From: an uncultured delta proteobacterium
Lineage (GTDB): Bacteria; Myxococcota; Myxococcia; Myxococcales; Anaeromyxobacteraceae
Length of the DNA: 64,000 nucleotides
Reading direction: 5' to 3'
NCBI GenBank assembly: GCA_963737085.1
Contig: CAVTRR010000005.1
Coordinates: forward strand, 173,409 to 237,408
The position numbers and the translations under genes were made by a program. Under the pieces are notes generated by a model that was not told the DNA's origin, searched no databases, and was given only the letters and a program-made list of their open reading frames with translations. This document shows positions 37,363 to 44,197 of this stretch, piece by piece (position 1 is the first letter of the stretch; every line of letters starts with the position of its first letter).

Positions 37363-38403
37363 TCACGCGGCGTACCTCAGCGCCATCTTCTCGAGGGGCA
37401 CCGGGCGCAGGCGGCTCGCCTGCCCCGCGCAGCCGAAGACGACGAAGCGCTCGGTGCAGATCCCGCGGGCCGCGGCGACCGCCTCGAGCAGGAACTTCCT
37501 CGGATCGAGCTCGCCGCGCGCGCGGGCGAGGGCGCGGCGCAGCGCGCCGGTCATGGCGAGCCGGAGGTCCGTGTCGATGTTCACCTTGCGCACGCCGTTG
37601 CGGATCCCCTCGCGGATCTCCTCGAGCGGCACCCCGTACGTCTCCGCCACCTCGCCGCCGTGCGCGCGCACGACCGCGAGCCACTCCTGCGGCACGGAGC
37701 TCGAGCCGTGCATGACGAGGTGGGTCCGGGGGGTGCGCGCGTGGATGCGGGCGATGCGGGCGACGTCGAGCACGTCGCCGGTCGGACGCCGCGAGAACTT
37801 GTAGGCGCCGTGCGAGGTGCCGATGGCGATGGCGAGGGCGTCCACCCCCGTGGCGGCCGCGAACGTGGCGGCCTGCTCGGGGTCGGTGAGGAGCATCTCC
37901 CTCGTGAGGACGCCGCGCGCGCCGGCGCCGTCCTCCTCCGCGGCGGCCCCGGTCTCGAGCGAGCCGATGCAGCCGAGCTCGCCCTCCACCGACACGCCCA
38001 CCGCGTGCGCGATCTCGACCACCCGGCCGGTGACCTCCACGTTGTAGGCCCAGGGGGCGGGGGTCCGCGCGTCGGCGAGGAGCGAGCCGTCCATCATCAC
38101 CGACGTGAAGCCGGAGCGGATCGCCGCCACGCAGGCGGCCGGGGAGGCGCCGTGGTCCAGGTGGGCGACGATGGGGGTCGCCGGGTACGCCTCCACCGCC
38201 GCGTGCAGGAGGTGGCGCAGGAACGGCTCCCCCGCGTAGCGCCGCGCCCCCGCCGACGCCTGGAGGATGACCGGGCTGTCGGTCTCCTCCGCGGCCTGCA
38301 GGATCGCGTGGATCTGCTCCATGTTGTTCACGTTGAACGCGGGGACGGCGTAGCCGTGCTCCGCCGCGTGATCGAGGAGCTGCCTGGCGGTGACGAGCGG
38401 CAT
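37363..38403 (-). CDS. cbbA: Class II fructose-bisphosphate aldolase (Calvin-cycle subtype)
   Basis: [52 protein letters not shown]. Confidence 0.93.
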
Positions 38404-38424
38404 GCGGCCTCCGGGCGCCCGGCG

Positions 38425-39300
38425 CTACGCGGCGCGGCGCTTGCGATCCATGAGCTGCAGGATCATGGGGGTGAGGATGATCTGCATCGCGACGGCCATC
38501 TTCCCGCCCGGCACCACGATGCTGTTCGCGCGGGACATGAAGGAGTCGTGCAGCATGGTGAGCAGGTAGGGGAAGTCGATGCCCCGCGGGTCGCGGAAGC
38601 GGATGACGACGAAGCTCTCGTCCGCGGTGGGGATGTCGCGGGCGATGAAGGGGTTCGAGGTGTCGACGGTGGGGACGCGCTGGAAGTTGAGGTGGGTGCG
38701 CGAGAACTGCGGGCAGACGTGGTTCACGTAGTCCGGCATGCGGCGGAGGATGGTGTCGACCACCGCCTCGGTGGAGTAGCCGCGCGCCGCCTTGTCGCGG
38801 TGGATCTTCTGGATCCACTCGAGGTTCACGATGGGCACGACGCCGACGAGGAGGTCCGCGTGGCGCGCGACGTCGACGCGGTCGGTGACGACGCCGCCGT
38901 GCAGCCCCTCGTAGAAGAGGAGGTCGGTCCCCTCGGGGAGCGGACGCCAGGGCGTGAAGGTGCCGGGCGGCTGGCCGTGGGGCGCGGCCTCCGCCTCGTC
39001 GTGCAGGTAGGTGCGCACGCGCCCGCCGCCGGTCTCGCCGTAGACGCGGAAGAGCGCCTCGAGCTCCTCGAAGAGGTTCGCCTCCGGCCCGAAGTGGCTG
39101 AAGTGCGGGTTCCCCATGCGGCCGGCCTCGACCATGGCGGCCCGCATCTGCGCGCGGTCGTAGCGGTGGAAGGCGTCGCCCTCGACCATCACGGCGCGGA
39201 TCGCCTCGCGCCGGAAGATCTGGTCGAAGGTGCGCATCACCGACGTGGTCCCCGCGCCTGACGACCCCGTCACGGCGATCACCGGGTGGCTCATCGACAT
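38425..39300 (-). CDS. cbbP: Phosphoribulokinase (proteobacterial type)
   Basis: AVTGSSGAGTT P-loop, EGDAFHRYDR, FSHFGPEAN, YEGLHG, EWIQKIHRD, NFQRVPTVDTSNPF; GGAGGAG SD. Confidence 0.95.
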   Translation of the reverse strand: MSMSHPVIAVTGSSGAGTTSVMRTFDQIFRREAIRAVMVEGDAFHRYDRAQMRAAMVEAGRMGNPHFSHFGPEANLFEELEALFRVYGETGGGRVRTYLHDEAEAAPHGQPPGTFTPWRPLPEGTDLLFYEGLHGGVVTDRVDVARHADLLVGVVPIVNLEWIQKIHRDKAARGYSTEAVVDTILRRMPDYVNHVCPQFSRTHLNFQRVPTVDTSNPFIARDIPTADESFVVIRFRDPRGIDFPYLLTMLHDSFMSRANSIVVPGGKMAVAMQIILTPMILQLMDRKRRAA

Positions 39301-40391
39301 GGCTCCTCCTCCGCCGGCAGCGCCGGCTCGCCCCGCGGCGCGTAGAGCGAGCGGGCGCGGAACAGCGGATCCTGGAACGGCGCGCCGTTGGCGTCGTGCT
39401 CGCGGTGGTAGCGCACGAGCCGCTCGACCTCCGCGCGCGAGCCGAGCACGACCGGCACGCGCTGGTGGAGGTCCGCCGGCTCGACGTCGAGGATGCGCTC
39501 GCGCCCCGTGGTGGCCGCGCCGCCCGCCTGCTCGACGAGGAACGCCATCGGGCTCGCCTCGTAGAGCAGGCGCAGCCGCCCGGCGCGCGCGGGCCGCTTC
39601 GCGTCCCGCGGGTACATGAACACGCCGCCGCGCACCAGGATGCGGTGCACCTCGGCCACGAGCGAGGCGATCCACCGCATGTTGAAGTCGGCGCCGCGCG
39701 GGCCCGCGCGCCCCGCGAGGCACTCGTTGACGTAGCGCCGGACCGGCGGCTCCCAGAACCGCGCGTTCGAGGCGTTCACCGCGAACTCGCTGGCCTCGGC
39801 GGGGATGCGCAGGTCGGGGTGCGTGAGGAGGAAGTCGCCGCCGCGCGGGTCGAGGGTGAAGCCGTGGACGCCCCGCCCCACGGAGAGGACGACCATGGTG
39901 GCCGGGCCGTAGAGCGCGTAGCCCGCGCAGACCTGCTCGCGCCCGGGCCGGAGGAACTCCCCCGCGGCGGGGGGCGCGGCCGCGCCTTCGTCGCGGCGCA
40001 GGATCGAGAAGATGGAGCCGACCGTGACGTTCACGTCGACGTTGGAGGAGCCGTCGAGGGGATCGAAGGCGACGAGGTGGCGCGCCCCGTCCGCGCAGGG
40101 GAGCGGGCGCGGCCCGGGCTCCTCCTCCGAGACGAGCCCGGCGGCGCCGGCGCGCTCGCAGGCCCGGGAGAGGATCTCGTTCGCGACGAGGTCGAGCTTC
40201 TTGTGCCGCTCGCCGTGGGAGTTCGAGGTGGCCGCCTCGCCGAGCCGCCCGCGCAGGGCGGCCTCCGCGACGGCGCCGGCGATCGCCCCGAAGGCGGGGA
40301 CGAGGTCGGCGAGCAGCGCGGCGAGGCCGCGCTCGAGGCCGGGGGTGCGCCGCGCCTCCTGCGCGAGGAAGCCCTCCAGGGTGGGGGTCAC
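39291..40391 (-). CDS. cbbF: Class 1 fructose-1,6-bisphosphatase (probably FBPase/SBPase)
   Basis: [56 protein letters not shown]. Confidence 0.93.
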
Positions 40392-43155: not shown

Positions 43156-43257
43156 GTTCGCACCTCGCTCGAGCGCCCTCGCGCTCACGTGCTGCGTCCG
43201 AAATTGAACCTGTACGCTGCGTATGCATCAGGCAATTCATATGTTCTGACCGATGAG

Positions 43258-43272
43258 ATAAGGTGAGCTTAT
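43258..43272. promoter_or_regulatory. LysR (CbbR) recognition site
   Basis: Perfect ATAAG-N5-CTTAT palindrome with a T-N11-A core, overlapping the cbbR ATG in the divergent cbbL/cbbR spacer. Confidence 0.7.
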
Positions 43273-44197
43273 GTCAGGCCTGAGGGACGTCACGCTGCGC
43301 CAGCTCCGGATCTTCGAGAGCGCCTCCCGCACGCAGTCCTTCTCGCGCACCTCGGAGGCGGTGCACCTCACGCAGCCGGCGGTGTCGATGCAGATGAAGC
43401 AGCTCGAGGACCTCGCCGGGCTGCCGCTCTTCGAGCGGATCGGGCGCCGCCTCCACCTCACGCAGGCCGGGGAGGAGCTGGCCCGCCACGCCCGGGAGGT
43501 GCTCCGCGCCGTGGAGCAGGCCGACGAGGCGCTCGCCGCGCTGCGCGGCCTGCAGGGCGGCCGCATCCGGGTGGCGGTGACGAGCACGGCGAAGTACTTC
43601 GCGCCGAAGCTCATCGCCCTCTTCGCGAAGCGTCACCCCGAGGTGGTCGTGCGCCTCTCGGTGGCGAACCGCGAGGTCGTCATCGGGGCGCTCGCCGCGA
43701 ACGAGGTGGACCTCGCCATCATGGGGAAGCCGCCCGACGCCCTCGAGACGGTCGCCTCGGAGTTCGCCGAGCACCCCTTCGTGGTCGTGGCGGCGCCCGA
43801 CCATCCGCTCGCGCGCCGGCGCTCCGTCCCGCTCTCGGCGTTCGGCGGCGAGACGTTCCTCGTGCGCGAGCCGGGGTCCGGCACGCGGGGGGCGATGGAG
43901 CGGTTCTTCGCCGGGCACGGGATCGAGGTGCGCGTCGGGATGACCCTCGAGAGCAACGAGACGATCAAGCAGGCGGTGATGGCGGGGATGGGGCTCTCCT
44001 TCATCTCCCGCCACACCGTCGGGCTGGAGCTCTCCGTGGGCGAGCTCGCCGTCGTGCACGCGCCCGGGCTGCCCGTGGTGCGCGCCTGGAACGTCGTCCG
44101 CCTCGCCGCGAAGCGGCCCTCGCCGGCGGCGCACGCGTTCGAGGCGTTCGTGCTCGAGGAGGGGAAGGCGTTCCTGAGGAACTGGCCGCGCCGCTGA
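43271..44197 (+). CDS. cbbR: LysR-type regulator CbbR
   Basis: [60 protein letters not shown]; divergent from cbbL. Confidence 0.93.

What the first reader, a model, noticed from the sequence alone, without database searches (positions are those of the whole stretch)
37363..44197. RuBisCO/PRK Calvin-cycle operon in a putative Anaeromyxobacter-like genome
Seen: cbbR divergent from cbbL-cbbS-cbbX-cbbF-cbbP-cbbA. All reading frames are intact, the RuBisCO catalytic motifs are conserved ([15 protein letters not shown], loop-6 GKLEG, SGG, GGG), several genes are translationally coupled, and a CbbR box is present. Established: form I RuBisCO plus PRK mark the CBB cycle, and CbbX is the red-type activase. 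Inference: the host looks like Anaeromyxobacter/Myxococcota, a group known as heterotrophic Fe(III)/nitrate/organohalide respirers. CO2 fixation, or CBB as an electron sink, would be unexpected there. The genes share the host's GC-rich codon style, which suggests an old acquisition.
Basis: partly seen in the sequence, partly recalled or inferred. Interest (0 to 1): 0.85.

Follow-up and report, generated by a model that had tools for sequence, protein, structure and literature searches.

The report
Calvin-cycle gene module in uncultured Anaeromyxobacter
An uncultured species of the soil metal- and nitrate-respiring genus Anaeromyxobacter carries a complete, well-conserved set of RuBisCO/Calvin-cycle genes, so it can probably fix CO2. 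The same genes are already annotated in other Anaeromyxobacter genomes assembled from metagenomes, so this is a solid but only moderately new finding.

Summary
Window 37363-44197 holds an intact minus-strand operon, cbbL-cbbS-cbbX-FBPase-PRK-class II FBA, with a divergent LysR/CbbR gene. Every enzyme scores above its NCBIfam cut-off. The RuBisCO is red-type form IC: its nearest solved structures are those of R. sphaeroides and C. necator.

The host is a genuine Anaeromyxobacter. RpoB is 94% identical to A. oryzae, and the genome is 99.97% complete with 0.3% contamination. An independent 320-kb metagenome contig carries the same genes in the same flanks, so the contig is not chimeric.

The operon is not unique. 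About 15 of 92 Anaeromyxobacteraceae species genomes carry it, all of them MAGs. The four closed single-contig genomes of the genus, including the one matching A. oryzae, lack it. Their CbbL sequences form one moderately supported clade inside the proteobacterial form IC radiation. The 8.2-kb module (nrfD-like gene plus cbbR plus operon) sits at different chromosomal sites in close relatives.

No photosynthetic reaction-centre genes are present. The other CBB enzymes, an uptake [NiFe] hydrogenase and nifH are encoded elsewhere in the genome. The most likely function is facultative chemolithoautotrophy or mixotrophy.

RuBisCO in Anaeromyxobacter MAGs is already in GenBank, and a 2026 preprint mentions CBB in Anaeromyxobacteraceae MAGs. 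I could get no expression data. Interest is moderate.

The parts
43271..44197 (+). cbbR: LysR-type regulator transcribed divergently from cbbL
   Evidence: 308-aa ORF. Best NCBIfam hit is CbbR NF045990, 300.9 bits, below the 450 cut-off. The independent assembly matches at 307 of 308 residues. dN/dS is 0.17 against G035.
43156..43270 (-). cbbR-cbbL intergenic control region. It holds a T-N11-A dyad TAAGCTCACCTTA (43259-43271), a conserved TGA(A)TTG element (43233-43239) and a GAGG ribosome-binding site (43163-43166).
   Evidence: Sequence read. An alignment of 14 family loci shows ATAAG-N5-CT(T/G)AT and TGATTGG conserved. The consensus scan found no sigma-70-like promoter or intrinsic terminator.
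41689..43155 (-). cbbL: form IC (red-type) RuBisCO large subunit, 488 aa
   Evidence: NCBIfam 758.9 bits. All catalytic motifs present. Best PDB matches are 25hn, 5nv3 and 1bxn. It is the only PF00016 match in the genome.
41278..41676 (-). cbbS: RuBisCO small subunit, 132 aa
   Evidence: Pfam RuBisCO_small on the identical protein in L092/L096. The identical protein is also found on two further short metagenome contigs.
40388..41275 (-). cbbX: red-type RuBisCO activase (AAA+), 295 aa
   Evidence: TIGR02880 492.4 bits, above the 459 cut-off. 418 bits to R. sphaeroides CbbX 3syk/3zuh, with Walker [10 protein letters not shown], Walker B LFIDEAY and the [11 protein letters not shown] loop aligned.
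39291..40391 (-). cbbF: class I fructose-/sedoheptulose-bisphosphatase, 366 aa. It overlaps cbbX by 4 nt and cbbP by 10 nt.
   Evidence: NF006779 448.2 bits, above the 349 cut-off. Gene call in L096.
38425..39300 (-). cbbP: phosphoribulokinase (bacterial class I), 291 aa
   Evidence: NF011997 516.3 bits, above the 362 cut-off.
37363..38403 (-). cbbA: class II fructose-bisphosphate aldolase (Calvin-cycle subtype), 346 aa
   Evidence: TIGR01521 564.5 bits, above the 496 cut-off.
44313..45556 (+). NrfD/DsrP-like membrane protein. It is an extra paralog that travels with the cbb module, and here it is frameshifted near 45233-45239.
   Evidence: DsrP model 318.9 bits, below the 350 cut-off. The genome has a second, orthologous copy on C8, while this copy is shared only with G035 (91%) and G030 (82%). 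G035 has an intact 412-aa copy, and the same frameshift is in the window and in L096.
37363..45538 (.). 8.2-kb block (nrfD-like + cbbR + cbbLSXFPA) that occupies different chromosomal sites in related genomes
   Evidence: blastn shows G035 C16 and G030 C8 matching the window only across 37363-45538 and 37348-45525. The G035 flanks map to adjacent positions C9:215324/215439 in the window's own genome, and G035 C17 has pntB and the cytochrome c/narG region 3.3 kb apart, with no cbb genes.

Best explanation
This is a functional, CbbR-controlled, red-type (form IC) Calvin-Benson-Bassham gene module in the chromosome of an uncultured Anaeromyxobacter species.

How it works (inferred from the roles of the families):
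- RuBisCO (CbbL8S8) is kept active by the CbbX activase.
- Phosphoribulokinase, FBPase/SBPase and class II aldolase are made from one tightly packed operon.
- CbbR probably binds the conserved T-N11-A dyad in the 115-bp intergenic region to control it.
- The remaining cycle enzymes (transketolase, ribulose-phosphate epimerase, RpiB, GAPDH-PGK-TPI) are encoded elsewhere in the genome.

Inferred function: the module lets the organism grow autotrophically or mixotrophically on CO2. Electrons would come from donors the genus is known to oxidise (from my own knowledge). H2 could be taken up through its Hyb-type [NiFe] hydrogenase, and formate is another candidate. Respiration would run on nitrate, Fe(III), N2O or low O2. 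No light-harvesting genes are involved.

Evolution: the module belongs to a CbbL clade specific to Anaeromyxobacteraceae and a sister family, nested in proteobacterial form IC. That indicates one old transfer into this order. Since then it has been lost in many lineages or relocated or exchanged among them, because it sits at different loci in close relatives.
For: - Gene identities are above curated cut-offs, and the catalytic residues are intact.
- All seven genes are under purifying selection, dN/dS 0.09-0.39 against G035.
- The operator dyad is conserved across the family.
- The genome is Anaeromyxobacter and of high quality (99.97% complete, 0.3% contaminated).
- An independent assembly shows the same arrangement.
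- TKT, RPE and RpiB score above their cut-offs, a Hyb-type NiFe hydrogenase large subunit is the best match (794.8 bits, below that model's 969 cut-off), and nifH is present. GAPDH, PGK and TPI were found by motif.
- No PufL/M in any of the 16 cbb-positive Anaeromyxobacteraceae genomes.
- CbbL forms one clade with SH-aLRT 98 in the quick tree and 92/74 in the careful tree, which also includes two sequences from a sister family.
- The module has different flanks in G035 and G030, and the window's own genome has an empty site where G035 carries it.
Against:
- Every carrier identified is a MAG, none a culture.
- No cbbZ is in the operon, and the best phosphoglycolate phosphatase candidate scores just under its cut-off (165 vs 180 bits).
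- The CbbR equivalog model is not met.
- No promoter-like site was found.
- The electron donor is inferred only from the presence of a hydrogenase and from what is known of the genus.
- The species tree rests on rpoB alone, and the AU test does not reject monophyly of the genus's CbbL (p = 0.064). Exchange within the family is therefore suggested but not proven.
Confidence: 0.7

Rival explanations
1. The module works but does not support autotrophic growth. It would act as a redox valve or for CO2 re-assimilation (mixotrophy). It would consume excess reductant or recapture respiratory CO2 during growth on reduced organic substrates, as the CBB cycle does in purple non-sulfur bacteria.
For: - Form IC operons are typical of facultative, metabolically versatile heterotrophs, as seen in the nearest relatives.
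- The operon lacks cbbT, cbbZ, cbbG and cbbK.
- By my own knowledge the genus is heterotrophic, and the four closed single-contig genomes of the genus lack cbbL.
Against: - Anaeromyxobacter has many respiratory electron acceptors and, in this genome, 60 ORFs with four or more haem-binding CxxCH motifs. A dedicated sink therefore seems less needed.
- A full set of cycle enzymes and an uptake hydrogenase are present.
- This reading differs from the main explanation in degree and does not exclude it.
Confidence: 0.2
2. The operon is a silent or decaying relic of an old transfer. It is still intact in this genome but is no longer used.
For: - Most of the genus has lost it (27 of 37 species lack it).
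- G028 carries a cbbL broken into four frames.
- G030 shows partial PRK and FBPase matches and no long CbbS match.
- The adjacent nrfD-like gene is frameshifted in the window.
Against: - All seven genes are intact in two independent assemblies.
- dN/dS is well below 1 in three pairwise comparisons.
- The operator is conserved.
- The fragmented copies are in long-read or low-completeness MAGs, where frameshifts may be assembly errors.
Confidence: 0.08
3. The cbb genes belong to a proteobacterial autotroph and reached this genome through mis-assembly or mis-binning.
For: - The nearest CbbL outside the family is proteobacterial, at 76-81% identity.
- One carrier, G009, is labelled 'Proteobacteria bacterium' in GenBank.
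Against: - The operon lies 42 kb or more from either end of a 267-kb contig. Its flanking PntB is 82-87% identical to Anaeromyxobacter genomes.
- The same junctions occur on an independent 320-kb contig.
- Composition is uniform: 71-75% GC and GC3 of 0.98-0.99.
- Fifteen family genomes carry a family-specific CbbL clade.
Confidence: 0.02

Closest known systems
Form IC cbb operons of facultative chemolithoautotrophic Proteobacteria: Xanthobacter flavus cbbR / cbbLSXFPTA, Cupriavidus necator cbbR / cbbLSXYEFPTZGKA, Rhodobacter sphaeroides cbbI (gene orders quoted from my own knowledge)
   Same: - A divergent LysR cbbR with a T-N11-A box.
- Gene order L-S-X-F-P-(T)-A. The relative G065 has L-S-X-F-P-T-A.
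- Red-type RuBisCO whose closest solved structures are 5nv3 and 1bxn.
- A CbbX activase.
   Different: - The host is a myxobacterium of a genus known for anaerobic respiration.
- The operon here is shortened, with no cbbT, cbbZ, cbbG, cbbK or cbbE.
- It is accompanied by an NrfD/DsrP-like membrane protein gene.
- CbbL is 76-81% identical to proteobacterial sequences and forms its own clade.
Form I RuBisCO/CBB genes in phototrophic Myxococcota (Li et al. 2023, PMC10576062) and Palsa-1104 bins (PMC11821767)
   Same: Myxococcota carry form I RuBisCO plus PRK, attributed to horizontal transfer from Proteobacteria.
   Different: - Those lineages (Nannocystaceae, Kuafubacteriaceae, Myxococcaceae) also carry photosynthesis gene clusters.
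- None of the 16 cbb-positive Anaeromyxobacteraceae genomes has PufL/M.
- The one phototrophic Myxococcota genome sampled (G169) has a CbbL from a different part of the form IC tree (joint monophyly rejected at AU p = 0.03).
Public annotations of RuBisCO in Anaeromyxobacter(aceae) MAGs: OFX20320.1 (Anaeromyxobacter sp. RBG_16_69_14), MFO0584652.1, MFT3914584.1, HTP26931.1; and the remark in bioRxiv 10.64898/2026.07.10.737566
   Same: The gene family, host family and CbbL clade are the same.
   Different: - Those are automatic annotations or a one-sentence survey remark.
- In the library I searched I found no analysis of operon structure, phylogeny, mobility or physiology.
- The window's species has its own variant, at most 95% identical at CbbL to anything outside its own species.

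Membership tests
Form I RuBisCO, red-type subform IC | Large subunit with all catalytic residues (KPK, carbamylated K in [15 protein letters not shown], loop-6 GKLEG, SGG, GGG) | tested here: met
   Translation. Residue-by-residue alignment to 25hn. NCBIfam 758.9 bits against a 438 cut-off.
Form I RuBisCO, red-type subform IC | Adjacent small-subunit gene (L8S8 enzyme) | tested here: met
   cbbS lies 12 nt downstream of cbbL, with Pfam RuBisCO_small on the identical protein.
Form I RuBisCO, red-type subform IC | Groups with form IC sequences, not with IA, IB or ID | tested here: met
   The top solved structures are R. sphaeroides 5nv3 and C. necator 1bxn, ahead of red-algal ID and green-type enzymes. 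The sequence nests among Bradyrhizobium, Steroidobacteraceae and Burkholderiales CbbL in ML trees. No IA, IB or ID outgroups were included in the tree.
CbbX red-type RuBisCO activase | AAA+ protein matching the CbbX equivalog, with Walker A/B motifs and pore loop, encoded next to red-type cbbLS | tested here: met
   TIGR02880 492.4 bits against a 459 cut-off. 418 bits to 3syk/3zuh with the motifs aligned.
Calvin-Benson-Bassham cycle gene set | Phosphoribulokinase together with RuBisCO | tested here: met
   NF011997 516.3 bits against a 362 cut-off.
Calvin-Benson-Bassham cycle gene set | The remaining enzymes are present in the genome (FBA, FBPase/SBPase, TKT, RPE, RPI, GAPDH, PGK, TPI) | tested here: met
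   FBA and FBPase are in the operon. TKT, RPE and RpiB score above their cut-offs. GAPDH, PGK and TPI were identified only by signature motifs in a clustered locus on C8.
Calvin-Benson-Bassham cycle gene set | Actual CO2 fixation or autotrophic growth | not testable with these tools
CbbR (LysR-type regulator of cbb operons) | Matches the CbbR equivalog model above its cut-off | tested here: not met
   NF045990 is the best hit but scores 300.9 bits against a 450 cut-off. That model is built on Rhodobacter-type CbbR.
CbbR (LysR-type regulator of cbb operons) | Divergent from cbbL, with a T-N11-A dyad in the shared intergenic region | tested here: met
   TAAG-N5-CTTA at 43259-43271, conserved in 14 family loci. 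Binding itself was not tested.
Genus Anaeromyxobacter (host) | Housekeeping genes closest to named Anaeromyxobacter species, and the contig is native to the genome | tested here: met
   RpoB is 94% identical to A. oryzae and A. oryzisoli. The database places the genome in a genus that includes a 6.7-Mb single-contig genome matching A. oryzae. PntB on the same contig is 82-87% identical to genus members.

The most novel reading that the evidence does not exclude
An uncultured but widespread group of Anaeromyxobacter(aceae) may be true facultative chemolithoautotrophs. They would fix both CO2 (form IC CBB) and N2 (nifH), powered by H2, formate or possibly Fe(II), while respiring nitrate, N2O or Fe(III). 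The trait would be carried on a compact 8-kb nrfD-cbbR-cbbLSXFPA cassette that relocates and is exchanged among members of the family. That would make a genus counted as a heterotrophic iron reducer in paddy and wetland soils a contributor to dark CO2 fixation.
Probability: 0.4. Interest if true: 0.55.

Novelty: new member of a known kind. Interest (0 to 1): 0.35.

Why it matters
Anaeromyxobacter is among the most abundant genera in paddy, wetland and aquifer sediments. It is treated as a heterotrophic Fe(III), nitrate, N2O and organohalide respirer and, more recently, as a diazotroph. If roughly one species in six in the family can also fix CO2 through a red-type CBB cycle, several things follow:
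- Carbon budgets and interpretations of cbbL amplicons or stable-isotope probing in these soils would need to include it.
- Enrichment on H2/CO2 or formate with nitrate or Fe(III) becomes a rational way to isolate the still uncultured cbb-positive lineages.
- The family-specific CbbL clade and the shifting position of the module give a tidy case of an autotrophy cassette being retained, lost and moved within one family.

The enzymes themselves are conventional, so the value is ecological and evolutionary, not mechanistic.

Tried and rejected
- An exact look-up of the window's CbbR found nothing, because the other strain differs by one residue.
- Scans for sigma-70 promoters and intrinsic terminators found none. 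That is uninformative at 74% GC.
- A search for terminal direct or inverted repeats at the module borders found nothing beyond what a GC-rich sequence gives by chance. There are no tRNA genes in the window, and no integrase or transposase within about 10 kb either side. I therefore do not call the module a mobile element.
- The AU test for monophyly of the genus's CbbL gave p = 0.064, so the gene tree alone does not prove transfer within the family.
- The rpoB DNA tree is poorly resolved at its base and is only a rough species proxy.
- A CoxL motif search found no aerobic CO dehydrogenase. I did not search for sox, cyc2 or formate dehydrogenase genes.
- I rejected the idea that adjacency to narGHJI is functional, because in G035 the module lies elsewhere.
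- Earlier scan notes for this genome concern other parts of the window and did not bear on this finding.
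Full report
**What is there**

ORF listing and translation show seven intact genes:
- cbbR, 43271-44197, plus strand
- cbbL, 41689-43155, minus strand
- cbbS, 41278-41676, minus strand
- cbbX, 40388-41275, minus strand
- a class I FBPase, 39291-40391, minus strand
- phosphoribulokinase, 38425-39300, minus strand
- a class II fructose-bisphosphate aldolase, 37363-38403, minus strand

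NCBIfam places every enzyme above its curated cut-off:

| Protein | Model | Bits | Cut-off |
|---|---|---|---|
| RuBisCO large subunit | NF003252 | 758.9 | 438 |
| CbbX | TIGR02880 | 492.4 | 459 |
| FBPase | NF006779 | 448.2 | 349 |
| PRK | NF011997 | 516.3 | 362 |
| FBA | TIGR01521 | 564.5 | 496 |

The LysR protein hits the CbbR model best, but at 300.9 bits it is below that model's 450 cut-off. The small subunit carries Pfam RuBisCO_small.

They align residue for residue with a solved form I enzyme. cbbL starts at a GTG at 43155, 7 nt after a GAGG. An independent gene call gives the same 488-aa protein. cbbX/FBPase overlap by 4 nt and FBPase/PRK by 10 nt. GC3 of the cbb genes is 0.98-0.99, as in the neighbouring genes.

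**What kind of RuBisCO**

The best solved-structure matches are 25hn, then 5nv3 and 1bxn. By my own knowledge the latter two are R. sphaeroides and C. necator, both form IC. Red-algal and diatom form ID come next, and green-type enzymes after that. CbbX scores 418 bits against R. sphaeroides CbbX (3syk/3zuh), with the Walker motifs and pore loop aligned. This is a red-type form IC system. It is the only RuBisCO-family gene in the genome.

**Whose genome**

The window is C5:173409-237408 of a 5.13-Mb, 12-contig genome that is 99.97% complete and 0.3% contaminated. Its RpoB is 94% identical to RpoB named Anaeromyxobacter oryzae (on a 6.72-Mb contig) and A. oryzisoli. PntB on the same contig is 82-87% identical to its homologue in the 11 other genomes of the genus tested.

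An independent ENA assembly (ERZ25039513, a 320-kb contig) carries the same operon in the same flanks. Its CbbL is 100% identical and its CbbR matches at 307 of 308 residues. Chimerism and mis-binning are therefore effectively excluded.

**Distribution**

- In the family, 18 of 92 species genomes give a hit. About 15 of these are full-length form I CbbL, one (G028) is fragmented, and two are distant RuBisCO-like proteins.
- In the genus, 9 of 37 genomes have an intact copy.
- The four closed single-contig genomes of the genus (G001, G002, G003, G006) have none. G003, at 6.7 Mb, matches the A. oryzae record.
- All close CbbL homologues are metagenomic.
- Cluster look-up shows that carriers are already annotated in GenBank as MAGs.
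- In an even sample of 401 Myxococcota genomes, only 11 have CbbL. Eight are in this family, two are in another family of the same order, and one is a 9.8-Mb genome elsewhere in the phylum.

**Phylogeny**

- In a 95-sequence ML tree, all Anaeromyxobacteraceae CbbL form one clade (SH-aLRT 98) inside the proteobacterial form IC radiation.
- In a careful 62-sequence tree, the clade also takes in the two same-order sequences, with support 92/74. Its neighbours are Steroidobacteraceae-type Gammaproteobacteria.
- The CbbL of the phototrophic Myxococcota genome G169 sits elsewhere in the tree. Forcing all Myxococcota together is rejected at AU p = 0.03.
- Within the clade, the genus appears in three places. 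Forcing it into one clade costs 26.8 log-likelihood units but is not formally rejected (p = 0.064).
- On an rpoB DNA tree of 23 genus members, cbb presence needs 6 changes, of which 3 are forced by well-supported branches.

Together with host-like composition, this fits one old acquisition from Proteobacteria. That was followed by frequent loss and probably some exchange within the family.

**A relocating block**

blastn against the nearest carriers shows that similarity to the window begins and ends sharply at 37363 and 45538 in G035 and G030. The block is 88% identical to G035 and 82% to G030. It runs from the stop codon of cbbA to the end of an nrfD-like gene lying beyond cbbR.

In G035 the block lies on another contig. 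The genes flanking it there have homologues that are adjacent in the window's own genome, at C9:215324/215439. That is an empty site. Meanwhile G035's pntAB and narG regions are only 3.3 kb apart. G030 has a third context.

I found no flanking repeats, tRNA genes, integrases or transposases. The movement is therefore documented, but its mechanism is unknown. The adjacency to narGHJI in the window is thus incidental.

The nrfD-like gene is an extra paralog. The orthologue shared by the genus is on C8. The paralog travels with cbb in the window, G035, G030 and G065. In the window and in the independent assembly it carries a frameshift near 45233-45239, whereas G035 has an intact 412-aa copy. In G065 the operon reads cbbLSXFP-transketolase-cbbA, followed by a small di-haem cytochrome and the NrfD gene.

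**Is it in use?**

- Pairwise dN/dS for all seven genes is 0.09-0.39 against G035, and below 0.5 against G030 and G065.
- The cbbR-cbbL intergenic region holds a T-N11-A dyad, TAAG-N5-CTTA, against the cbbR start. A TGATTG(G) element lies about 20 nt downstream. Both are conserved across 14 family loci.
- Elsewhere the genome encodes transketolase, ribulose-phosphate epimerase and RpiB, all above their cut-offs. It also has a large subunit whose best match is the Hyb-type [NiFe] uptake hydrogenase model (794.8 bits, below that model's 969 cut-off), and nifH.
- A GAPDH-PGK-TPI cluster was recognised by motifs.
- A phosphoglycolate-phosphatase-like protein scores just under its cut-off, and there is a beta-carbonic-anhydrase-like protein.
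- None of the 16 cbb-positive Anaeromyxobacteraceae genomes has reaction-centre genes, whereas G169 does. This CBB system is therefore chemotrophic, unlike the phototrophic Myxococcota described by Li et al. 2023.

**Most likely function**

The gene complement indicates facultative chemolithoautotrophy or mixotrophy. CbbR would switch on the operon when reductant is plentiful and fixed carbon scarce. RuBisCO, maintained by CbbX, and PRK would run the cycle with the housekeeping pentose-phosphate and glycolytic enzymes. Electrons would come from H2 or formate, coupled to nitrate, Fe(III), N2O or O2 respiration.

These steps are inferred from the family roles and from what is known of the genus. 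None is demonstrated here.

The rival readings:
- A redox-valve or CO2-recapture role is a softer version of the same function.
- A silent relic is unlikely, given purifying selection in three comparisons and intact genes in two assemblies.
- A mis-assembled proteobacterial fragment is effectively excluded.

**Novelty**

The system is a textbook form IC cbb operon, close in gene order to that of Xanthobacter flavus (from my own knowledge). Form I RuBisCO in Myxococcota has been published (PMC10576062, PMC11821767). A 2026 preprint on Danish Myxococcota MAGs states in one sentence that MAGs including Anaeromyxobacteraceae encode a complete or near-complete CBB cycle. GenBank MAG annotations already carry the gene.

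Searches of the held literature found no report of autotrophy, cbbL or CBB function in Anaeromyxobacter.

What this analysis adds:
- the family-wide survey
- the family-specific CbbL clade
- the absence of phototrophy genes
- the conserved operator
- the relocating 8.2-kb block with its NrfD companion

I rate it a new member of a known kind, of moderate ecological interest.

Noticed in passing
window 44313-45556 (+), frameshift near 45233-45239: The NrfD/DsrP-like paralog next to cbbR is split into two frames in the window and in the independent assembly L096. It is intact (412 aa) in G035. This is either a real pseudogene or a shared long-read error. The paralog accompanies the cbb module in four genomes, and its role is unknown.
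   Followed up: partly
window 32786-36406 (-) narG; 36403-36915 (-) small cytochrome c: The NarG here is 90% identical to G035 but only 63-70% identical to the NarG of other Anaeromyxobacter genomes. It is preceded by a 170-aa protein with a CxxCH motif. The whole nar cluster may be a lineage-specific variant or an acquisition.
   Followed up: partly
G028:C20:559946-561377 (L112): In this 6.7-Mb genome of the same genus, cbbL is broken into four pieces in different frames, while cbbS, cbbX, cbbF and cbbP look intact. This is either a pseudogene or an assembly error.
   Followed up: no
L100 (G065:C86) 291-5937: In another genus of the family the operon includes transketolase between PRK and FBA. 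It is followed by a 200-aa paired-CXXCH cytochrome and the NrfD-like gene.
   Followed up: partly
L025 / L107 (G009:C188): A genome that the database places in the window's genus is labelled 'Proteobacteria bacterium isolate OH_CBB_164' in GenBank (JAEYOU010000192.1). Such labels could hide Anaeromyxobacter RuBisCO in taxonomy-based surveys.
   Followed up: no
G000:C2:292015-293061: nifH (TIGR01287, 464.6 bits) is present in the same genome. The organism may therefore combine N2 and CO2 fixation.
   Followed up: no
G169:C2:960599-962257 and 2247362-2248768: A 9.8-Mb Myxococcota genome from another family carries pufL/pufM and a CbbL from a different form IC subclade. This is consistent with the phototrophic Myxococcota of Li et al. 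2023 and with an independent acquisition.
   Followed up: partly
window 474-23072: The left third of the window is a polysaccharide-export and biosynthesis locus (Wzc-like kinase, UDP-glucose dehydrogenase, flippases, AsnB/NadE-like enzymes, an AMP-binding enzyme). It is unrelated to cbb.
   Followed up: no
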